Notes under the pieces: generated by a model
What the model was told of the DNA's origin: nothing
What the model saw: the letters and a program-made list of their open reading frames with translations, nothing else
Databases searched by the model: none
In this document: one piece after another, positions 32,123 to 63,437 of the stretch
Position numbering within the stretch: position 1 is the stretch's first letter
How the letters are laid out: each line of letters starts with the position of its first letter
Program-made: the position numbers and the translations under genes
Assembly: GCA_964605645.1 (NCBI GenBank)
Contig: CAZSDJ010000002.1
Location: 394-64,393 of the forward strand
DNA length: 64,000 nt
Origin: an uncultured Planctomycetia bacterium
GTDB taxonomy: Bacteria; Omnitrophota; Gorgyraeia; Duberdicusellales; 4484-171
Direction: 5' to 3'

Positions 32123-32195
32123 GAGCCGCTAGCTCAGTTGGTAGAGCACCGCCCTTTTAAGGCGGCTGTCCCGAGTTCGAGCCTCGGGCGGCTCA
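32123..32195 (+). tRNA. tRNA-Lys (anticodon TTT)
   Basis: Cloverleaf read by hand: acceptor GAGCCGC/GCGGCTC, D-arm GCTCAGTTGGTAGAGC, anticodon loop CTTTTAA, T-arm CCGAGTTCGAGCCTCGG. No encoded CCA. Confidence 0.8.
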
Positions 32196-32198
32196 CTT

Positions 32199-32283
32199 GC
32201 CGCGGTGGCGGAATTGGCAGACGCGCTGGACTTAGAATCCAGTCTCGTGAGAGGTGGGAGTTCGACTCTCCCCCGCGGCACCA
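32199..32283 (+). tRNA. tRNA-Leu (anticodon TAG), class II with long variable arm, CCA encoded
   Basis: Acceptor GCCGCGG/CCGCGGC, anticodon loop CTTAGAA, variable arm TCTCGTGAGAGGT, T-arm GGGAGTTCGACTCTCCC, 3' ACCA. Confidence 0.8.
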
Positions 32284-32323
32284 ATTAGCCAATGGCTAAT
32301 GGCTAATAGCTATAAGCTAAATT

Positions 32324-32396
32324 GCGGGTGTAGCTCAGCCGGTAGAGCGTCACGTTGCCAACGTGAAGGTCGGGGGTTCGAGACCCCTCGCCCGCT
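32324..32396 (+). tRNA. tRNA-Gly (anticodon GCC)
   Basis: Acceptor GCGGGTG/CGCCCGC, D-arm AGCTCAGCCGGTAGAGC, anticodon loop TTGCCAA, T-arm GGGGGTTCGAGACCCCT. Confidence 0.8.
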
Positions 32397-53996: not shown

Positions 53997-54116
53997 ACTC
54001 CCAATGACACTGAGACAAGTTGTTGCAATATGAGTTACAATTCACCTTGATAGTGCTCAGTTGCAAAAAAGGTGTTTTTTAGAATCTTTTTATGCTATAA
54101 TTATTCGAATATAATT

Positions 54117-54419
54117 ATGTTGACTAGAAAAGAAATATTTTCAATTTTAAAAAATCAATTGCCTTATTTACGCAATTATTTTGGTGTAAGCCGCATTGCA
54201 GTTTTTGGTTCTTTTGCAGAGGGTTCTCCGCGGGAAAATAGTGATGTTGATTTATTGGTTGAATTTGATAAATCACCCGGATTAAAATTTATAGAACTGA
54301 GCGAGTATCTTGAAAAAAAAATAGGTAAAAAGGTTGATATTTTGACACCGGGCGGCCTTAAAGGGATACGGCTTTCTAGAGTGGCTGAAGATATAAAGAA
54401 TAGTTTGCACTATGTCTAA
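54117..54419 (+). CDS. minimal nucleotidyltransferase (MNT) antitoxin of HepT/MNT type VII TA system
   Basis: GSFAEGSPRENSDVDLLV, a Pol-beta-type NTase GS...D.D motif. About 100 aa. Start chosen at MLTRKEIF rather than the ORF-track 54072. Confidence 0.7.
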   Translation: MLTRKEIFSILKNQLPYLRNYFGVSRIAVFGSFAEGSPRENSDVDLLVEFDKSPGLKFIELSEYLEKKIGKKVDILTPGGLKGIRLSRVAEDIKNSLHYV

Positions 54420-54759
54420 AAGAAATGATCTTGATTATATAGCAGACATCTTGGAAGCATTAAAAAGGATATTTTCTTACTGTGATAATTTGAATTATGA
54501 TCAATTTTTAGATGATGAAAAGACTCAGGATGCTGTAGTACGCAACCTTGAAATAATTGGCGAAGCATCTAAAAATATTTCTTCTGTTTTTTCTCAAAAA
54601 TATTCCGAAGTTACTTGGAGTGATTTAGCTAAAGTTAGAGACAAGCTTATTCATCATTATTTTGGTGTGAATATAGATATTGTTTGGAGTATTATCGAAA
54701 GTTCTTTGCCTAAACTGCAGAATCAATTAAAAGAGATTTATGATCGCGAGATTTGCTAG
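54412..54759 (+). CDS. HepT-like (DUF86/HEPN) RNase toxin
   Basis: HEPN Rx4HxY motif RDKLIHHY. 115 aa. Overlaps the MNT gene by 8 nt. Confidence 0.7.
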   Translation: MSKRNDLDYIADILEALKRIFSYCDNLNYDQFLDDEKTQDAVVRNLEIIGEASKNISSVFSQKYSEVTWSDLAKVRDKLIHHYFGVNIDIVWSIIESSLPKLQNQLKEIYDREIC

Positions 54760-55698: not shown

Positions 55699-56886
55699 AT
55701 GACCAATACAATTGAAGAAATTATTGAAGATATTAAGCAAGGTAAGCCGGTAATTGTGGTCGATGATGAATCTCGCGAAAATGAGGGTGATATTGTCATT
55801 GCAGCTCAATTTGCAACTCCTAAAATTATTAATTTTATGATTAAAGAGGCAAGAGGATTAGTTTGTGTGCCTTTAACCAAAAAAAGGACAGAACAATTAC
55901 AACTTAATCCGATGTCTGATAAAGATTCTGATGATAAATTTAAAACGGCTTGGCGAATTTCAGTTGATGCAAAAAAGGGAGTAACTACCGGAATTTCTGC
56001 TTATGATCGAGCTCGGACCATTGAAGTATTAATTGATCCAAAAAGCAATGGAGATTCTTTTCTGAAGCCCGGCCATCTTTTTCCCCTTGAAGCTGAAGAA
56101 GGAGGAGTTTTAGTAAGGGCCGGCCACACTGAGGCGGCCGTTGATTTAGCAAAGATATCAGGGCTTAAGCCAGCTGGAGTAATTTGTGAAGTGATCAAAG
56201 AAGATGGCTCAATGGCAAGATTCCCCGATTTAGTTGAATTTACTAAAATTCATAATTTAAAAATTTGTACTATTGCTTCTTTAATCGAATATCGCAGGCG
56301 TAAAGAAAAATTAGTTAGTTTAGTTGAAAAAGTTAAATTGCCCACTGCTTATGGTGATTTTTCTTTATGTTTATATCAATCAATTTTAGATAACAGCCAA
56401 CATCTGGCTTTAGTTAATAATTTAAAAAGAGATAAACCTGTTTTGGTTAGAGTTCACTCCGAATGTTTAACGGGTGATGTGCTGGCCTCACTGCGGTGTG
56501 ATTGCGGAACTCAATTGCAAAAAGCCTTAAAGATGATTGGAGAATCGGGAGGAGTGCTTTTGTATATGCGTCAAGAAGGTAGGGGGATTGGCCTCGCCAA
56601 TAAAATTAAAGCTTATAAATTGCAAGAAGAAGGTAAAGATACAGTGGAGGCAAATACTGATTTAGGTTTTGAGCCTGACCTCCGTGATTATGGGATTGGG
56701 GCACAAATTTTAGCGGATTTGGGTATTAAAAAAATAAGGCTGCTAACCAATAATCCGCGCAAAATAGTCGGCCTGGAAGGTTATGGCTTAGAGATAACCG
56801 AAAGAGTTTCAGTTAAAATTAAATCAGGTAAAGACAATAGTTGTTACCTCAATACAAAAAAAGATAAATTAGATCATATCTTGTGA
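55699..56886 (+). CDS. ribBA: bifunctional 3,4-dihydroxy-2-butanone-4-phosphate synthase / GTP cyclohydrolase II
   Basis: DHBP synthase N-terminal half (VVDDESRENEGD, RAGHTEA). GCH II half with zinc Cys CLTGD...CDCG. 395 aa. Confidence 0.9.
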   Translation: MTNTIEEIIEDIKQGKPVIVVDDESRENEGDIVIAAQFATPKIINFMIKEARGLVCVPLTKKRTEQLQLNPMSDKDSDDKFKTAWRISVDAKKGVTTGISAYDRARTIEVLIDPKSNGDSFLKPGHLFPLEAEEGGVLVRAGHTEAAVDLAKISGLKPAGVICEVIKEDGSMARFPDLVEFTKIHNLKICTIASLIEYRRRKEKLVSLVEKVKLPTAYGDFSLCLYQSILDNSQHLALVNNLKRDKPVLVRVHSECLTGDVLASLRCDCGTQLQKALKMIGESGGVLLYMRQEGRGIGLANKIKAYKLQEEGKDTVEANTDLGFEPDLRDYGIGAQILADLGIKKIRLLTNNPRKIVGLEGYGLEITERVSVKIKSGKDNSCYLNTKKDKLDHIL

Positions 56887-56913: not shown

Positions 56914-57372
56914 ATGAAAGAAATCAAAGGCAAATTTGACGGTAAAGGGAAAAAGATAGCGATAGTAATTTCCCGTTTTAATGAATTAATTAGTAAGCGG
57001 TTGCTGGAAGGCTGTCTGGATACTTTAGGAAAGTGCGGGACTGACGACAAAAGTATCTCTATCTATTGGTCACCGGGTGCTTATGAAATCCCTCAAGTTT
57101 TGTCAAAATTACAGACAAGCAAGTTTGACGCAGTCGTAACTTTAGGTGCAGTGATTAGAGGCGATACGCCTCATTTTGAATATATATCTTCTGAGGTTGC
57201 AAAAGGAGTGGCGAAAGTAGCTCAAGATAAAAAAATACCAATAGCTTTTGGGATAATTACAGCTGATACCATTGAGCAAGCAACCGAAAGATCAGGGACT
57301 AAACAGGGCAATAAAGGCTCTCAGGCAGCTTTTTCTGCTTTGGAAATGGCTAACTTATACAGTCAATTATAA
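56914..57372 (+). CDS. ribH: 6,7-dimethyl-8-ribityllumazine synthase
   Basis: 152 aa lumazine synthase fold (IAIVISRFNE, GAYEIP). Confidence 0.9.
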   Translation: MKEIKGKFDGKGKKIAIVISRFNELISKRLLEGCLDTLGKCGTDDKSISIYWSPGAYEIPQVLSKLQTSKFDAVVTLGAVIRGDTPHFEYISSEVAKGVAKVAQDKKIPIAFGIITADTIEQATERSGTKQGNKGSQAAFSALEMANLYSQL

Positions 57373-57375
57373 AAC

Positions 57376-57477
57376 AGTCCAAAGTCCATAGTCCCAAGTC
57401 AAAAGAATAAACTTTATTGCTTATTTTAAAATTTAAAAATAATGACATAGGGCTTCGGACACAGGACATAGGACTAT
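57376..57477. repeat. inverted pair of heptamer arrays (AGTCCNN)x3.5 ... (GGACNNN)x4.5 flanking a 44-nt A/T-rich spacer, ribH-nusB intergenic
   Basis: Left arm agtccaaagtccatagtcccaagtc at 57376-57400. Right arm gacatagggcttcggacacaggacataggactat at 57445-57477. Confidence 0.75.
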
Positions 57478-57506: not shown

Positions 57507-57932
57507 ATGAGATCTCGATCAAAAGCACGTGATATAGCTCTTTGCCTTCTCTATCAGATAGAGATATCTAAGATTAAACCCGAAGACGCCCTCCTTGGCG
57601 ATTTAGCCAAAAGTTTTAAAGACCAAATAGTAATTGATTTCATGTCTCAATTAGTTGAAGGGGTAATTTTCAATCAAGAAAAAATTGATTCTATAATTAA
57701 AAAGTATGCACAAAATTGGAAAATAAAACGAATGGCTGTTGTTGACAGAAATGTGTTAAGGATATCTGTTTATGAACTATTTTTTTTAGAGGATATCCCT
57801 CCGAAGGTTTCGATCAACGAAGCAATTGAATTGGCTAAGCGGTATGGAGATCTTGATTCAGCTCGTTTCGTGAATGGTATTTTAGATAAAATTTATAAAA
57901 AAGAAAAAATGATTCAGGAAAAAAAGAATTAA
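57507..57932 (+). CDS. nusB: transcription antitermination factor NusB
   Basis: 141 aa all-helical NusB family (ARDIALCLLYQ, ARFVNGILD). Follows rib genes as in many bacteria. Confidence 0.85.
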   Translation: MRSRSKARDIALCLLYQIEISKIKPEDALLGDLAKSFKDQIVIDFMSQLVEGVIFNQEKIDSIIKKYAQNWKIKRMAVVDRNVLRISVYELFFLEDIPPKVSINEAIELAKRYGDLDSARFVNGILDKIYKKEKMIQEKKN

Positions 57933-58774
57933 TGCAGAACCAAGAAAAAAAATGTGACCTTCATCTCCATACATCTTATTCAGACGGGGATTTATCACCG
58001 CAAGAATTAATAGAGGCTGCTTTGGCAGCAAAAGTGGCTTGTATTTCTATTACCGACCACGATAGCATAAAAGCAATTCAAGAAGTTGAAAATAAATCCT
58101 ACCTAGATTATTTAGAGTTAATAAAAGGAATAGAATTAACTACTTCCTACCAAGATCACGAAGTCCACATTTTAGGATATTTAATTGATATAAAAAGTGA
58201 TTCTTTTCAACAAAAAATAAGAGAAGCTTATCAAGTTCGACAAGATAGGTTTAAAGTAATGGTTGAAAGATTAATATTGAAAGGATTAAACATTGATCAA
58301 GAAAGCTTATTGAAAACAGTAAAAGATGTTGCTCCAACTCGCCTTCATTTGGCAAAGTATCTTTTGGAAATTAGGCAGGTCAATTCTATCCATGAAGCTT
58401 TTCGCAGGCATCTTAGCCCCGGTAAAGACGGCTATCTATGCAGCAGTAGATTTAGTGCTAAAGAAGCCATTGATTTTATTCATCAGCATCAGGGTTTAGC
58501 CTTTTTAGCTCATCCCCACAAGCTTATTTGCCAAGATTGGTTAGGTGATTTTTTATCACTCGGTATCGATGGATTGGAAGTTTCTTATCCTACTATGGGG
58601 AGTAAAGAAAAATATTCTTATACTGAATATGCCTTAAAAAATAAACTTTTATTTAGCGGTGGGTCTGATTTTCATCAAAAAATCAAGGGGTTTTCCGGTA
58701 TTGGCTCTGTAGATGTTCCTTATGATTGGGTTATAAAGATGAAACAAAGAAAAAAAGAATTAATTGGTATATAA
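57932..58774 (+). CDS. PHP-domain metal-dependent phosphoesterase (TrpH/YciV-like)
   Basis: N-terminal CDLHLHTSYSDGDLSPQELIEAA, a PHP motif I HxH with Asp. Later HILG and DGLEV. 280 aa. Embedded between nusB and ribD. Confidence 0.7.
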   Translation: MQNQEKKCDLHLHTSYSDGDLSPQELIEAALAAKVACISITDHDSIKAIQEVENKSYLDYLELIKGIELTTSYQDHEVHILGYLIDIKSDSFQQKIREAYQVRQDRFKVMVERLILKGLNIDQESLLKTVKDVAPTRLHLAKYLLEIRQVNSIHEAFRRHLSPGKDGYLCSSRFSAKEAIDFIHQHQGLAFLAHPHKLICQDWLGDFLSLGIDGLEVSYPTMGSKEKYSYTEYALKNKLLFSGGSDFHQKIKGFSGIGSVDVPYDWVIKMKQRKKELIGI

Positions 58775-58790
58775 AAAAATTTTAATAAAA

Positions 58791-59873
58791 ATGGAAAAAA
58801 AAGATATTTATTTTATGAGAAAAGCTATAAATTTAGCCAAGCAAGGCGAAGGGGAAACTTCACCTAATCCGTTAGTCGGGGCGGTGGTGGTTAAGAATCA
58901 AAAAATATTAGCTAAAGGGTTTCACCAAAGATACGGGATGGCTCATGCAGAAATTAATGCATTAGAAAAAGCTGGCAGCTTGGCTTGTGGTGCAACTCTG
59001 TATGTAAACCTTGAACCCTGTTGCCATTATGGTAAAACTCCGCCTTGCCTGGATAGGATAATTAAAGCCGGGATTAAGAGAGTGGTGATAGCTATCAAAG
59101 ATCCTAACCCGCAGGTGTGCGGTAAATCGATTAGAAAGTTAAGAAGCCACAGTGTAAAAGTGTCTTTAGGGATTTGTAAAGAAGAAGCTTTAGAATTGAA
59201 TAAAGTATTTTTTAAAAATATGAAGCAAAGGCTTCCCTTTGTAGCCGCAAAAGCAGCTCAAAGCTTGGATGGAAAAATTGCAACTAGTGCCGGCCAATCA
59301 AAATGGATTACCACAAAGCAGGCAAGAAATTTTTCTTATAAGCTTCGTGACAAATATGATGCAATTTTAATTGGAGCAGAAACTTTACGCAAAGATAATC
59401 CGAAACTTAATGGTTTAAAAAAAATTCCCTATAAAGTGATAATTTCTTCTAGTCTGGATTTACCGGAGAATTCTTATCTATTTAAAAATTTTCCCGGCAA
59501 TACTGTAATTTTTACTGATAAAAAATCAGGTAAAAACAACAAATTACCGAAGCAAATTAAAATTATTCCTTTAAAAATGACCAAAAAAGGACTCTCTTTA
59601 AAACAAATATTAAAAAAATTATACTCATTTGGCATTATGTCGGTGTTTGTTGAAGGTGGTTCTGAAACTTTAGGCAGATTTTTTAAACAAAAATTGATAG
59701 ATAAGGCTTATTTTTTTCTGGCCCCAAAAATTTTGGGTGGGAAAAAGGCCTTAACTTCAGTAGGATTTGAAGGTTTTCGAAAAATAAATGAAGCTTTAGA
59801 AATTGATAACATAACAATAAACAAAATAGGCAAAGACATTTTAATTTCCGGCTACCCTATTAAAAGTAGATAA
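58791..59873 (+). CDS. ribD: bifunctional riboflavin biosynthesis deaminase/reductase RibD
   Basis: CMP/dCMP-type deaminase zinc motif HAE...PCCHYGKTPPC. C-terminal RibD reductase domain. Start 58791 chosen over 58764. Confidence 0.85.
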   Translation: MEKKDIYFMRKAINLAKQGEGETSPNPLVGAVVVKNQKILAKGFHQRYGMAHAEINALEKAGSLACGATLYVNLEPCCHYGKTPPCLDRIIKAGIKRVVIAIKDPNPQVCGKSIRKLRSHSVKVSLGICKEEALELNKVFFKNMKQRLPFVAAKAAQSLDGKIATSAGQSKWITTKQARNFSYKLRDKYDAILIGAETLRKDNPKLNGLKKIPYKVIISSSLDLPENSYLFKNFPGNTVIFTDKKSGKNNKLPKQIKIIPLKMTKKGLSLKQILKKLYSFGIMSVFVEGGSETLGRFFKQKLIDKAYFFLAPKILGGKKALTSVGFEGFRKINEALEIDNITINKIGKDILISGYPIKSR

Positions 59874-59902: not shown

Positions 59903-60250
59903 ATGGATAATAAAAGAAAATTAATTAGGTTAGAGGCTTCTGATTTTTTGCAAATTAAGCCGATAAATGAAATAGGCAGAATTTATGAAGCAGAAGTTAA
60001 GGATTTTACCTTTATGGGTATCTGTTTTTTTTCATCAGTAGAGTGGAAAAAAGGGCAAGTTCTGGCAATAAATTATTTTCTTTCTGAAAATAATGAACCG
60101 GTTAAGATGAAGATGGTCGTGATTTGGTCGGAATTTATTGGTTCAAAGCAAGGTTATTTTTGTGGTGGGCAAATTACAAATATTGAAGAAAAACATCAAG
60201 CTCAGTTTGCTCATTATTATTACAAGAAGCTTAAAGAAAAGTCTTCCTAA
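59903..60250 (+). CDS. PilZ-domain protein (putative c-di-GMP receptor)
   Basis: RxxxR (RKLIR) near the N-terminus and DxTxxG (DFTFMG) about 25 aa later match the PilZ bipartite c-di-GMP motif. 115 aa. Confidence 0.45.
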   Translation: MDNKRKLIRLEASDFLQIKPINEIGRIYEAEVKDFTFMGICFFSSVEWKKGQVLAINYFLSENNEPVKMKMVVIWSEFIGSKQGYFCGGQITNIEEKHQAQFAHYYYKKLKEKSS

Positions 60251-60332: not shown

Positions 60333-63300
60333 ATGCAAATTCAATATCCTCAAATTACAATAGTTGAAGCATCAGCAGGATCGGGGAAGACTTATGCTTT
60401 GGCTAAACGCTTTTTGCAATTGTTGATTAACAGACAATCTCCTTCCCCCGATTACTTGCGAACAATTTTAGCCATCACTTTTACTAATAAAGCTGCTTAT
60501 GAAATGAAAGAAAGAATTTTAGAGATTTTAAAAAATATTGCTTTAGATTCGTTTTCTGATCAATCCCAAAAAAAAGATGTTTTAGATAGCTTGACGGTAG
60601 ATTATAATTTTGCCCGCAAGCAAGCACACCTATTAATTGAAAAAATTATTCACAATTATAGTTATTTCGGGATTAAAACTATAGATAGTTTTATCAATTC
60701 TTTATTATTGGGTTGTCCTCTTCATATTGGGCGCTCAGCGTCATTTACGATTAAAAGAAATTATAAAGAATATCTTTTATATGCGCTTGATACCTTAATT
60801 GATAAATCATTATCGAGTCAAGAATTAAAAAAGGATTTTAATGAATTTTTAAGCCATTATCTTTTTGTTGAAAACAGGGGCAGTTGGTTTCCGAAAGATA
60901 AAATATTAGATTTAATGATAACTCTTTTTGAATTGGTTAATCGTTATGGCAAAGATTTTTCTAAATATAAAACTAGTACTGATTTATTGTTTAATCAAAA
61001 AAGGTATTTATATAAAAAAATAAAAGAACTAGTTGATGTTTTTCCTTCCGGCTTGAACAAAAGGAGTAAAGACTCTTTTATTAAGTTTATTGAGCAAAAT
61101 GGCTGCCAATTCGAAATAGCTAATTTACCCAACAGTTTAGCTAAAGCCGGCCCTCCCCTCAATAAAGATAAATTTGCGAATAAAGATTTTTTGAAAAAAT
61201 GGCATTCAATTCATAAACAAGTAGAAAATTTAATAGAAACAGAAGCAGAAACTTCTTATAATTCTTATATCGGATTATTTAATGAAGTGGAAGATGTTTT
61301 TGAAATTTTTGCAGAAAAAGAAGATATTTTATTTTTAAGTCAGCTCAATCATCAAGCCCGTTTTCTTTTTAGTAAGCAAGGTATAACCGTAGCCGAACTT
61401 TATTATCGGTTGGCCACGCGATTCCAACATTATTTGATTGATGAATTTCAAGATACAAGCCAACTGCAATGGGATAATTTAGAAGAAATGATCTCTGAAG
61501 GCCTAGCTTCGGGAGGGACGCTTTTTTATGTTGGTGATAAAAAACAGGCAATTTACCGCTTTCGCGGCGGGCAAAGCCAGCTTTTTTATGAAATCAAGAG
61601 AAAGCTTGAACCTTACCAATCGGCTACATTATTATTAAAAAAAAATTGGCGCAGTCAAAAAGAAATAGTTGAGTTTAATAATTTTATTTTTTCTCAACAA
61701 AATTTAAAAAGTTTCTTGGAAAGATCAAAAATTTCTAAAGAAGTTAGTAATAGAAAGTATCTTCAGGAAATTAGGGATAATTTTAAAAATGGCGAACAAA
61801 CCTATACAAAAGGCAATAAGGATGGATTTGTATTTATTGAAAAATTAAATGAATCCGACAAGGCAGAACGGGACAAAATAGTCAGGGATAAAGTTGTTAA
61901 TTTAATTAAAGATTTAAAAAAGCGTTTTAGTTTGGGAGACATTGCGTTATTAACCAGAGACAATCGAGAAGTAGAACTTTTAACCGGATGGTTGATAGAA
62001 GAGGGCTTTCCGGTTGAATCTGAAAAGACTTTATGTGTGTTGGAGCATCCTCAAATAAAAGAAATAATCAGCCTCCTGCAATTTTTATATTCACCAATTA
62101 ATGATTTAAGTTTTGCTTCATTTATCCTAGGAGATATTTTTAGCAAAGAAACAGGGATAAAAAAAGAAAAAATAACTGATTTCCTTTTCAATTTATACCA
62201 GAATAAGAAAAAAGAAAATATAAGCACCTACCGTAAGTTTATAGATGAATTTCCTCAAGTTTGGAATTCCAAATTTGCTTCTTTTTTTAAAACAGTTGGC
62301 TTTGTTTCCCCCTACCAGTTGATAGTTGCTATTTATGAACAATTTAATTTACCGAAAAATTTTCCTAAAGCCCAGGCTTTTTTTAAAAAATTTCTTCAAC
62401 TTTGTAAAGACAGCCAAGAAGAAAAGCTTGGCTTGTGGGGATTTTTAACTTATCTTCAGAATCCTGAACCTGATAAACTTTATGTCGAGATAAATGCAAA
62501 AAATTCTTTAAAAATTTTAACTATTCATAAAGCTAAAGGCCTGGAGTTTCCGGTTGTAATCATCCCATTTTTAAAAATTGATATTTCTTCAGAAATTGTC
62601 AAGATGGGGGCCAAATCTCATTTGGAAAAAAAGAGACAAAAGCTGCATCTTTTGAGAATTACAAAAGAATATTCGCGTTATTCAAGCCGCCTCAGAAATA
62701 TTTATCAGAATGATTATAAACTGGCCTGCATTGATGAACTTAATAATATTTATGTAGCATTAACTCGGCCCAAATATGAACTTTATGTCTTTATCCCCCG
62801 CAAAAGCGGCAATTCTTTGAATCAAGCTTCCTTTTTAGTAGATCAAGAAAACATAAAAAGAGGAAAAAAAGTTTGCTATCCCCGCTTGGACTCACAGCAA
62901 AACATTAAAAAAATTAAGGCTTCACAATATAGGAATTGGGTTCATTACTTAAATGAAGAATCTTTTTCCGGCCAGTCAGCCAGAAACAGGGAAGAAAAAA
63001 AAGAAGGTATAATTTTACATCAGGCCTTATCTGCTGTCGGAGATTGTTCTAAAAAGAATATTAATATATATCTTGACCAAGCAATGGCTAAAATTAAAAA
63101 TAATTTTTTCAGCGAAGATATTAAAAAATACAGAAGAAAAATAAAAGAAATAATTACCAATAAAAATTTAAAGGAGATATTCTTTCCTCTAAAAGCCGGG
63201 GTTTATTGCGAAAAGGAATTTGTAAATAAAAAGGGAGAAACAAGGAAAATAGATAGAATTATGATTTTTAAAGATAAGATAACAATTGTTGATTATAAAA

Positions 63301-63437
63301 AAAGCAGGAGTCGAAAAATAGAACATCGCAGGCAATTAAAAGATTACAAAGAAGTTGTTCGAGCCATTTATCCGCAAAAAAAAATTCGAGGGGTTATCGT
63401 TTATCTCGCGGAATTAGAAAAAGAATATTTATTTTAA
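60333..63437 (+). CDS. UvrD/PcrA-type SF1 helicase fused to C-terminal PD-(D/E)XK nuclease (AddA/RecB-like helicase-nuclease)
   Basis: Helicase motifs I ASAGSGKT, Ia TFTNKAA, II DEFQDTSQ, III GDKKQAIYRFRGG, IV NWRSQ, V-VI TIHKAKGLEFPVV / VALTRPK. Nuclease motifs ILHQALSAVGD and IDRIMIF...IVDYKKS. 1034 aa. Confidence 0.75.
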   Translation: MQIQYPQITIVEASAGSGKTYALAKRFLQLLINRQSPSPDYLRTILAITFTNKAAYEMKERILEILKNIALDSFSDQSQKKDVLDSLTVDYNFARKQAHLLIEKIIHNYSYFGIKTIDSFINSLLLGCPLHIGRSASFTIKRNYKEYLLYALDTLIDKSLSSQELKKDFNEFLSHYLFVENRGSWFPKDKILDLMITLFELVNRYGKDFSKYKTSTDLLFNQKRYLYKKIKELVDVFPSGLNKRSKDSFIKFIEQNGCQFEIANLPNSLAKAGPPLNKDKFANKDFLKKWHSIHKQVENLIETEAETSYNSYIGLFNEVEDVFEIFAEKEDILFLSQLNHQARFLFSKQGITVAELYYRLATRFQHYLIDEFQDTSQLQWDNLEEMISEGLASGGTLFYVGDKKQAIYRFRGGQSQLFYEIKRKLEPYQSATLLLKKNWRSQKEIVEFNNFIFSQQNLKSFLERSKISKEVSNRKYLQEIRDNFKNGEQTYTKGNKDGFVFIEKLNESDKAERDKIVRDKVVNLIKDLKKRFSLGDIALLTRDNREVELLTGWLIEEGFPVESEKTLCVLEHPQIKEIISLLQFLYSPINDLSFASFILGDIFSKETGIKKEKITDFLFNLYQNKKKENISTYRKFIDEFPQVWNSKFASFFKTVGFVSPYQLIVAIYEQFNLPKNFPKAQAFFKKFLQLCKDSQEEKLGLWGFLTYLQNPEPDKLYVEINAKNSLKILTIHKAKGLEFPVVIIPFLKIDISSEIVKMGAKSHLEKKRQKLHLLRITKEYSRYSSRLRNIYQNDYKLACIDELNNIYVALTRPKYELYVFIPRKSGNSLNQASFLVDQENIKRGKKVCYPRLDSQQNIKKIKASQYRNWVHYLNEESFSGQSARNREEKKEGIILHQALSAVGDCSKKNINIYLDQAMAKIKNNFFSEDIKKYRRKIKEIITNKNLKEIFFPLKAGVYCEKEFVNKKGETRKIDRIMIFKDKITIVDYKKSRSRKIEHRRQLKDYKEVVRAIYPQKKIRGVIVYLAELEKEYLF

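What the first reader, a model, noticed from the sequence alone, without database searches (positions are those of the whole stretch)
57932..58774. PHP-domain phosphoesterase embedded in the riboflavin operon (ribBA-ribH-nusB-PHP-ribD)
The 280-aa protein has the PHP metal-binding signature (CDLHLHTSYSDGD, later HILG, DGLEV) and resembles TrpH/YciV-type phosphoesterases.

It is translationally coupled: its start overlaps the nusB stop, and the ribD start (58764 or 58791) overlaps or abuts its stop.

The dephosphorylation of 5-amino-6-(5-phosphoribitylamino)uracil is the one riboflavin-pathway step without a dedicated conserved enzyme. In characterised organisms it is done by promiscuous HAD phosphatases. 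An operon-embedded PHP enzyme is a candidate for that missing phosphatase in this lineage.

Alternatively, hisB here lacks a fused phosphatase domain, so this PHP protein could be the histidinol-phosphate phosphatase (HisK-type PHP).
Basis: inference. Interest (0 to 1): 0.5.

Follow-up and report, generated by a model that had tools for sequence, protein, structure and literature searches.

The report
RNase AM-type phosphoesterase coupled to nusB
The gene is a real, intact PHP-family enzyme sitting inside the riboflavin operon of an Omnitrophota bacterium, but it looks like the local version of a known nucleotide/RNA-trimming enzyme (RNase AM / pAp phosphatase) that travels with, and in anammox bacteria is fused to, the transcription factor NusB, rather than a new riboflavin-pathway phosphatase.

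Summary
A 280-aa PHP-domain ORF (57932-58774) overlaps the nusB stop by 1 nt (TAATG). It ends 16 nt before the likely ribD ATG.

The protein belongs to the TrpH/YciV (RNase AM)/Cv1693 family, not the HisK family.
- All nine metal ligands are present.
- The three arginines and the phenylalanine that hold a 5'-phosphorylated nucleotide in RNase AM and Cv1693 are present.
- Only the HPGR arginine is missing.

The neighbourhood is strongly conserved.
- In Omnitrophota-type species genomes, nusB lies immediately upstream in 57 of 57 and ribD immediately downstream in 58 of 58.
- Across all PVC lineages sampled, the constant partner is nusB.
- In Brocadiales, NusB and the PHP domain are one fused protein, followed by ftsY.
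- Verrucomicrobiota have nusB-PHP-ftsY.
- Ignavibacteria independently have PHP-ribH without nusB.

The favoured reading (confidence about 0.55) is a Mn-dependent 5'-phospho-nucleotide/short-RNA 3'-phosphoesterase working alongside NusB. On this reading it sits in the rib operon because of the old ribH-nusB linkage.

The ARPP-phosphatase idea stays open at about 0.2 and is directly testable. The histidinol-phosphate phosphatase idea is rejected.

The parts
55699..56886 (+). ribBA (bifunctional DHBP synthase / GTP cyclohydrolase II), first gene of the block
   Evidence: Pfam DHBP_synthase 274 bits plus GTP_cyclohydro2 243 bits. NCBIfam NF006803 601 bits, above the cut-off of 569.
56914..57372 (+). 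ribH (lumazine synthase)
   Evidence: Pfam DMRL_synthase 174 bits. TIGR00114 164 bits, cut-off 84.6.
57377..57467 (+). Long imperfect hairpin of GTCC/GGAC repeats in the 134-nt ribH-nusB spacer. It could be a processing or attenuation site separating ribBA-ribH from nusB-PHP-ribD.
   Evidence: RNA MFE -27.7 kcal/mol, z = -3.0 against shuffles. Conserved in L005 and L006; a different palindrome sits at the same place in L001. The function was not tested.
57507..57932 (+). nusB (transcription antitermination factor). Its stop overlaps the PHP start.
   Evidence: TIGR01951 143 bits, cut-off 88. TAATG overlap.
57932..58774 (+). TrpH/YciV(RNase AM)/Cv1693-family PHP phosphoesterase, 280 aa: the finding itself
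   Evidence: - Family hits: NCBIfam RNase RNM 177 bits and pAp phosphatase 154 bits. PDB sequence hits 9etk, 7ug9, 2yb1 and 3e0f.
- Structure: AF2 model pLDDT 93, TM 0.85 to V. cholerae RNase AM and to Cv1693.
- Metal ligands present: H11, H13, D18, H43, E68, H79, H194, D246, H248.
- 5'-phosphate pocket present: R103, R106, R137, H139, F157.
58791..59873 (+). ribD (deaminase/reductase). The likely ATG start is 16 nt after the PHP stop; an alternative TTG lies at 58764.
   Evidence: TIGR00326 367 bits, cut-off 156. Start position judged from alignment to relatives.

Best explanation
The ORF encodes the Omnitrophota orthologue of the COG0613 PHP phosphoesterases (E. coli/V. cholerae RNase AM = YciV/TrpH; C. 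violaceum Cv1693).

**Proposed mechanism**
- It is a (beta/alpha)7 PHP barrel with a trinuclear Mn site.
- A helical insertion domain supplies a three-arginine pocket for a 5'-phosphate and a phenylalanine that stacks on the base.
- The enzyme therefore most likely binds a 5'-phosphorylated nucleotide and hydrolyses the ester at its 3' position.
- That means pAp/pNp 3'-phosphatase activity and/or 5'-to-3' removal of nucleotides from short or 5'-monophosphorylated RNA.

**Proposed role**
- It is made together with NusB and probably acts with it, for example on the 5' leaders of rRNA transcripts that NusB-NusE mark.
- It lies in the riboflavin operon because nusB has long been linked to ribH, not because it acts on a riboflavin intermediate.

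**Shown versus inferred**
- Shown here: family, fold, residue conservation, gene order, and the fusion in Brocadiales.
- Inferred: the substrate, the physical or functional partnership with NusB, and the role in rRNA maturation.
For: **1. Family and fold**
- Sequence family hits.
- AF2 model pLDDT 93. Best solved-structure matches are RNase AM 9etk and Cv1693 2yb1, each TM 0.85.

**2. Active site**
- All nine metal ligands are invariant in the 84 loci L001-L084 and the three references.
- So are R103/R106/R137/F157, which correspond to E. coli R107/R110/R141/F161. PMC9410882 identifies those residues as the 5'-phosphate pocket and base stack.

**3. Evolution**
- The NJ tree follows taxonomy.
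- Identity to RNase AM (32%) is close to identity to homologues in other phyla (34-37%). This points to vertical inheritance of one family.

**4. Link to nusB**
- nusB is immediately upstream in 57/57 Omnitrophota-type, 6/6 Brocadiales and 2/2 Verrucomicrobiota genomes.
- The nusB stop and PHP start overlap in 49 of 76 unfused pairs.

**5. Fusion**
- NusB and PHP are one polypeptide throughout Brocadiales: Brocadia, Jettenia, Kuenenia, Scalindua and basal lineages.
- All 120 listed clusters (the best 120 hits, 49-97% identity) carry both PF01029 and PF02811.

**6. Independence from rib genes**
- In Verrucomicrobiota the nusB-PHP pair persists with ftsY and without ribH.

**7. Literature**
- RNase AM matures the 5' ends of 16S, 23S and 5S rRNA in E. 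coli (PMC7261194).
- RNase III-RNase AM fusions exist in deltaproteobacteria (PMC7261194). A second fusion to an rRNA factor therefore fits the family.
- Family members also act as pAp phosphatase and diribonuclease (PMC11528712).
Against: - In Omnitrophota the gene is just as tightly joined to ribD (58/58), with frequent overlaps. In many of these genomes it sits in a complete rib operon, ribBA-ribH-nusB-PHP-ribD-ribE.
- Ignavibacteria have PHP-ribH with no nusB nearby: 5/6 genomes and 19/33 metagenome loci. The NusB partnership does not explain this.
- The arginine of the HPGR motif (E. coli R201, which contacts the scissile phosphate) is replaced in all 84 loci L001-L084. Catalytic details may therefore differ.
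- The protein scores below both NCBIfam equivalog cut-offs: 177 against 375, and 154 against 400.
- The AF2 model of the natural fusion shows two domains on a disordered linker and no confident interface (pTM 0.65).
- No enzyme assay exists for any member of this clade.
Confidence: 0.55

Rival explanations
1. The PHP protein is the missing ARPP (ARAPDP) phosphatase of riboflavin synthesis in Omnitrophota and relatives. It would remove the 5'-phosphate from the RibD product to give the RibH substrate, either as its only job or as a second activity.
For: - It lies between ribH and ribD in 58/58 Omnitrophota-type genomes, often with overlapping stop and start codons.
- Divergent members carry ribBA-ribH-nusB-PHP-ribD-ribE.
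- An independent PHP-ribH pair occurs in Ignavibacteria without nusB.
- In Verrucomicrobiota, ribD-ribE lie about 3 kb downstream.
- The step has no conserved dedicated enzyme. Known enzymes come from three unrelated folds: HAD, histidine phosphatase and IMPase (PMC12051542, PMC13151069). A fourth fold would therefore be plausible.
Against: - The 5'-phosphate arginine pocket and the base-stacking Phe are invariant, exactly as in RNase AM and Cv1693. ARPP has one phosphate, so the conserved two-site geometry has no matching riboflavin intermediate (inference).
- There is no rib-specific paralogue or sequence divergence.
- The protein is fused to NusB in all Brocadiales, where ribD is not adjacent.
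- nusB-PHP-ftsY occurs without ribH in Verrucomicrobiota.
- No FMN riboswitch was found in the window or in nine loci.
- nusB shows that membership of this cluster does not imply a riboflavin role.
- No PHP-family ARPP phosphatase appears in the literature searched.
Confidence: 0.2
2. It is a housekeeping pAp phosphatase/nanoRNase with no functional tie to either neighbour. The arrangement would be inherited synteny in compact, gene-dense genomes.
For: - In the Omnitrophota closest to the window, the conserved string also includes unrelated genes: hisD-hisB-hisH-hisA-rplM-rpsI-ribBA.
- Homologues in Firmicutes, Armatimonadota and I. album-like bacteria sit in unrelated contexts.
- Family members have general RNA-turnover roles (PMC11528712).
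Against: - The nusB-PHP pair survives wherever the rest of the context changes across three PVC phyla.
- The fusion is fixed across a whole order.
- Stop/start overlaps dominate at the junction.
- Chance synteny rarely lasts at this depth.
Confidence: 0.2
3. It is the HisK/HisJ-type PHP histidinol-phosphate phosphatase, compensating for the monofunctional hisB.
For: hisB in the window has the IGPD domain only. The his genes lie 4-7 kb upstream in the closest relatives.
Against: - hisJ_fam TIGR01856 scores 22 bits against a cut-off of 90. PRK06361 scores 34 against 117.
- The protein has the COG0613 insertion domain and arginine pocket.
- No histidinol-phosphatase structure appears among the Foldseek hits with E<=1e-3.
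- The his genes are absent upstream in the divergent Omnitrophota examined in detail (L004, L025), which keep the PHP block.
Confidence: 0.02

Closest known systems
RNase AM (YciV/TrpH/Rnm) of E. coli and V. cholerae (PDB 7ug9, 9etk)
   Same: - Same fold: TM 0.85 to 9etk.
- 32% identity.
- All nine metal ligands, the three 5'-phosphate arginines and the stacking Phe are present.
- Similar length, with the insertion domain.
   Different: - It lacks the HPGR arginine (E. coli R201; K197 here).
- It scores 177 bits against the equivalog cut-off of 375.
- The genomic partner is nusB/ribD rather than yciO and the trp region (and own knowledge of E. coli).
- Its activity is untested.
Cv1693, 3',5'-nucleoside bisphosphate (pAp) phosphatase of Chromobacterium violaceum (PDB 2yb1)
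   Same: - TM 0.85.
- Same metal site.
- R99/R102/R134/H136 correspond to R103/R106/R137/H139 here.
   Different: - 28% identity.
- Below the NF041577 cut-off: 154 against 400.
- The HPGR arginine is absent.
NusB-PHP fusion proteins of Brocadiales (annotated by PGAP as 'transcription antitermination factor NusB'; uncharacterised)
   Same: The PHP domain is orthologous (about 35% identity, same residues). The gene order ribH-nusB-PHP is the same.
   Different: - In the window the two proteins are separate, with a 1-nt stop/start overlap.
- Downstream lies ribD, not ftsY.
RNase III-RNase AM fusions in deltaproteobacteria (noted in PMC7261194)
   Same: A COG0613 enzyme joined to a factor of rRNA synthesis or processing.
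   Different: The partner differs (RNase III, not NusB). These fusions were not examined here.
Known ARPP phosphatases: HAD enzymes YigB/YbjI, YcsE/YwtE/YitU and PyrP2; Aquifex histidine-family phosphatase and IMPase (PMC12051542, PMC13151069)
   Same: At most a possible shared task. This gene is clustered with rib genes, which the review reports B. subtilis's ARPP phosphatase is not (PMC13151069).
   Different: The fold and catalytic machinery are unrelated. There is no evidence of activity on ARPP.

Membership tests
COG0613 TrpH/YciV(RNase AM)/Cv1693 PHP phosphoesterases | Distorted (beta/alpha)7 PHP barrel with a helical insertion domain | tested here: met
   AF2 model pLDDT 93, pTM 0.91. 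Foldseek TM 0.85 to 9etk and 2yb1, and 0.84 to 3o0f.
COG0613 TrpH/YciV(RNase AM)/Cv1693 PHP phosphoesterases | Nine His/Asp/Glu ligands of the trinuclear metal site | tested here: met
   H11, H13, D18, H43, E68, H79, H194, D246 and H248 are invariant. They match E. coli H13, D20, H45, E72, H83, H198, D255 and H257 (PMC9410882).
COG0613 TrpH/YciV(RNase AM)/Cv1693 PHP phosphoesterases | 5'-phosphate pocket of three arginines plus a base-stacking Phe | tested here: met
   R103, R106, R137 and F157 correspond to E. coli R107, R110, R141 and F161. They are invariant in the 84 loci L001-L084 (PMC9410882).
COG0613 TrpH/YciV(RNase AM)/Cv1693 PHP phosphoesterases | HPGR arginine contacting the scissile phosphate (E. 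coli R201) | tested here: not met
   K197 in the window. The position is variable (K/L/I/T/S/A...) in all 84 loci L001-L084, and R in the three references.
RNase AM equivalog (NF047791) / pAp phosphatase equivalog (NF041577) | Score above NCBI's curated equivalog cut-off | tested here: not met
   177 bits against 375, and 154 bits against 400. The protein is a family-level member, not a named equivalog.
RNase AM / pAp phosphatase | Mn-dependent hydrolysis of pAp or 5'-P oligoribonucleotides; rRNA 5' maturation | not testable with these tools
   Needs an enzyme assay and rRNA 5'-end mapping.
ARPP (ARAPDP) phosphatase of riboflavin synthesis ('RibZ', a functional class) | Homology to a known ARPP phosphatase family (HAD, histidine phosphatase, IMPase) | tested here: not met
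   Only PHP-family hits in Pfam, NCBIfam and PDB. Known families as listed in PMC13151069.
ARPP (ARAPDP) phosphatase of riboflavin synthesis ('RibZ', a functional class) | Conserved clustering or co-regulation with rib genes | tested here: met
   ribD is next in 58/58 Omnitrophota-type genomes. PHP-ribH occurs in 5/6 Ignavibacteria genomes. However, no FMN riboswitch was found, and nusB shares the same clustering.
ARPP (ARAPDP) phosphatase of riboflavin synthesis ('RibZ', a functional class) | Dephosphorylates ARPP and supports riboflavin formation | not testable with these tools
   Needs the one-pot assay of PMC12051542.
HisK/HisJ PHP histidinol-phosphate phosphatase (COG1387) | Match to the hisJ family model and fold | tested here: not met
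   TIGR01856 scores 22 bits against a cut-off of 90.2. No histidinol-phosphatase structure appears among the fold hits.
Phosphoribosyl 1,2-cyclic phosphate diphosphodiesterase (NF041661) | Score above the equivalog cut-off | tested here: not met
   70 bits against 500.

The most novel reading that the evidence does not exclude
In PVC bacteria the RNase AM-like PHP enzyme may be a stoichiometric partner of NusB, fused to it in anammox bacteria. It would then be an unrecognised component of the rRNA antitermination/processing machinery.

NusB-NusE binding to BoxA would tether it to nascent rRNA leaders, where it would trim 5' ends co-transcriptionally. This would parallel, with an unrelated fold, the recruitment of the phosphatase-fold protein SuhB to the E. 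coli complex (the SuhB comparison is from own knowledge).

A second unexcluded novel reading is that it is the dedicated ARPP phosphatase of these phyla (about 0.2).
Probability: 0.2. Interest if true: 0.7.

Novelty: new member of a known kind. Interest (0 to 1): 0.45.

Why it matters
- **If the ARPP reading were right**, it would supply a dedicated, operon-encoded enzyme for the one riboflavin step that still lacks one, in a fourth protein fold. The candidate is easy to test.
- **If the NusB reading is right**, it links an rRNA 5'-end-trimming nuclease physically to the antitermination factor that marks rRNA transcripts. That would give a concrete mechanism for co-transcriptional rRNA maturation in a large, poorly studied group of bacteria. 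It would also explain hundreds of database entries named simply 'NusB' that carry an extra enzyme domain.
- **Either way**, the case is a caution. Being embedded in a biosynthetic operon is weak evidence when a known passenger gene (nusB) sits next door.

Tried and rejected
- **HisK-type histidinol-phosphate phosphatase.** Rejected on model scores, fold hits and loss of his-gene adjacency.
- **Cyclic-phosphate diesterase (PhnPP type).** Rejected: 70 bits against a cut-off of 500.
- **FMN riboswitch as a regulon marker.** None was found in the window or in nine loci, including five with PHP-ribH. This is uninformative rather than negative, because these lineages may not use it.
- **AF2 model of the natural NusB-PHP fusion, to look for a fixed interface.** It gave two confident domains on a disordered linker, pTM 0.65. 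This is no evidence for or against contact.
- **Third homologue search, with the Verrucomicrobia protein.** It returned only close relatives (84-100% identity) and added little diversity.
- **Cummings et al. 2014 (Cv1693).** The paper could not be read. Cv1693 residue roles are taken from PMC9410882 and from the alignment.
- **Whole-genome questions.** A second COG0613 paralogue, and the presence of CysQ, NrnA, Orn or HAD phosphatases, could not be addressed because only flanks of loci are available.
- **Literature searches.** Searches for a PHP-family ARPP phosphatase or a NusB-PHP fusion found nothing.

Full report
**Observation**

The window carries a 280-aa ORF at 57932-58774 on the + strand. 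Its ATG shares one base with the TAA stop of the preceding gene (TAATG).

The next gene can start at a TTG at 58764, overlapping by 11 nt. More likely it starts at the ATG at 58791, 16 nt after the stop. That start is the one that aligns with relatives.

The neighbours pass curated thresholds as ribBA, ribH, nusB and ribD. The order ribBA-ribH-nusB-PHP-ribD is therefore real. hisB, further upstream, has the dehydratase domain only. The organism is a member of Candidatus Omnitrophota, judged from the source names of the closest homologues.

**What the protein is**

- Pfam sees only the N-terminal part of a PHP domain.
- NCBIfam places the whole length on the RNase RNM (RNase AM) model at 177 bits and on the 3',5'-nucleoside bisphosphate phosphatase model at 154 bits. 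Both scores are far below the equivalog cut-offs.
- The hisJ family model scores 22 bits.
- The solved relatives by sequence are V. cholerae and E. coli RNase AM, Cv1693 and BAD_1165.
- An AlphaFold model built on 14 homologues is confident (pLDDT 93). It superposes on V. cholerae RNase AM and on Cv1693 at TM 0.85. No histidinol-phosphate phosphatase appears among the significant hits.

In an alignment of the 84 loci L001-L084 plus the three reference enzymes, the following are invariant:
- the nine metal ligands;
- R103, R106, R137, H139 and F157.

The structural paper on RNase AM assigns the E. coli equivalents (R107, R110, R141, F161) to the buried 5'-phosphate pocket and the base stack. 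These residues are shared with Cv1693 (PMC9410882).

The one consistent difference is the arginine of the HPGR motif (E. coli R201), which touches the scissile phosphate. It is K197 here and is variable in all 84 loci L001-L084.

A neighbour-joining tree groups the sequences by phylum. The window protein is 32% identical to RNase AM and 34-37% identical to homologues from Brocadiales, Verrucomicrobiota, Ignavibacteria and Firmicutes. This is the pattern of one vertically inherited family, not of a specialised rib-linked paralogue. The tree has no support values.

**Neighbourhood**

| Lineage | Arrangement | Count |
|---|---|---|
| Omnitrophota-type species genomes | nusB immediately upstream | 57/57 with enough flank |
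| Omnitrophota-type species genomes | ribD immediately downstream | 58/58 with enough flank |
| Divergent Omnitrophota | ribBA-ribH-nusB-PHP-ribD-ribE | several loci |
| Brocadiales | ribH-[NusB fused to PHP]-ftsY | 6/6 |
| Verrucomicrobiota | nusB-PHP-ftsY, no ribH adjacent, ribD-ribE about 3 kb further on | 2/2, plus L165 |
| Ignavibacteria | PHP-ribH, no nusB within 10 kb | 5/6 genomes; 19/33 related metagenome loci |
| Firmicutes, an Armatimonadota MAG, I. album-like bacteria | unrelated contexts | 0/5 linked |

Further details:
- In the Omnitrophota closest to the window, the conserved string also runs through hisD-hisB-hisH-hisA-rplM-rpsI. The divergent members examined in detail (L004, L025) have other genes upstream and keep only the five- or six-gene block.
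- In Brocadiales the fused polypeptide is 420-460 aa. A protein search lists its best 120 hits. All 120 clusters, at 49-97% identity, carry both domains. They come from Brocadia, Jettenia, Kuenenia, Scalindua and basal lineages.
- Among unfused pairs, the nusB stop and PHP start overlap in 49 of 76.
- The PHP-ribD junction is about equally tight.

**Weighing the explanations**

Three things count against it.

1. The cluster contains a known passenger. nusB sits in rib operons in many bacteria without a riboflavin role, so membership of this cluster is a poor predictor of function.
2. The constant partner over the whole PVC group is nusB. The pair survives where ribH (Verrucomicrobiota) or ribD (Brocadiales) is gone, and it has been welded into one protein in an entire order.
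3. The active site retains a two-site geometry: a 5'-phosphate pocket plus a metal centre for the 3' ester. This fits pAp or 5'-P RNA. It fits no riboflavin intermediate, since each of these carries a single phosphate. This last step is inference, not measurement.

The literature adds that RNase AM trims the 5' ends of all three rRNAs in E. coli. It also reports that relatives fused to RNase III exist in deltaproteobacteria (PMC7261194). The family also acts as pAp phosphatase and diribonuclease (PMC11528712). A NusB-linked copy fits that picture.

Several points keep the ARPP reading alive at about 0.2:
- the Ignavibacteria PHP-ribH pair, which is a second and differently ordered association with the enzyme that uses the dephosphorylated product;
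- the tight coupling to ribD;
- the fact that known ARPP phosphatases already come from three unrelated folds (PMC12051542, PMC13151069).

No PHP-family ARPP phosphatase and no NusB-PHP fusion were found in the literature searched.

**Limits**

- No assay data exist for this clade.
- The AlphaFold model of the natural fusion shows a flexible linker and no confident interface. Physical contact between the two parts is therefore unproven.
- I could not examine whole genomes for a second paralogue or for alternative pAp, nanoRNA or ARPP enzymes.
- The window itself holds no ribE, no ftsY and no second PHP gene.
- No FMN riboswitch was detected.

**Verdict**

- The family assignment and the conserved neighbourhood are confirmed.
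- The HisK alternative is rejected.
- The ARPP function is possible but less likely than a nucleotide/RNA phosphoesterase that works with NusB.
- The protein is a new member of a known family. Its unreported, phylum-spanning coupling to nusB is the more interesting lead.

Noticed in passing
L054, L058, L070, L073, L075, L083, L166 (e.g. L058:9533-10816); proteins P0121-P0240: In all sampled Brocadiales (anammox bacteria and basal relatives), NusB and the PHP phosphoesterase are a single fused ORF of 420-460 aa. Public annotation usually names it just 'transcription antitermination factor NusB'. The AF2 model shows two folded domains joined by a disordered linker of about 18 residues.
   Followed up: yes
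L028, L046, L067, L069, L078 and metagenome loci L085-L133 (e.g. L069:9995-11316): Ignavibacteria-type homologues sit directly upstream of ribH (PHP-ribH, gaps mostly 2-50 nt), with no nusB nearby. This occurs in 5/6 genomes and 19/33 metagenome loci.
   Followed up: partly
window 57377-57467: A long imperfect hairpin of GTCC/GGAC repeats fills the ribH-nusB spacer (MFE -27.7 kcal/mol, z = -3.0). It is conserved in two relatives, and a different palindrome replaces it in a third. It may split the block into two transcription or processing units.
   Followed up: partly
window 54072-54759: A nucleotidyltransferase (MNT) plus HepT ribonuclease toxin-antitoxin pair lies between hisA and rplM. The closest relatives (L001, L005) have no such pair at that position.
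   Followed up: partly
window 59903-60250 and 60333-63437: A 115-aa PilZ-like ORF and an AddA/UvrD-type helicase follow ribD. Both are conserved downstream in the Omnitrophota closest to the window.
   Followed up: no
L001:9942-10400; L003:9952-10542; L004:10034-10461; L025:11922-13716: The gene after ribD varies among relatives. It is MazG in L001 and an FMN-type nitroreductase in L003 and L004. In L025 it is ribE, followed by an acylphosphatase and a Metallophos_2 phosphoesterase, which is another phosphatase candidate next to rib genes.
   Followed up: no
L063:8607-12052; L150:5502-8024: In Clostridia-type loci the PHP homologue is followed by a class I/II aminotransferase and preceded by YmdB or DUF1292. 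This is a different conserved context and was not explored.
   Followed up: no
window 32123-32396: A cluster of three tRNA genes.
   Followed up: no
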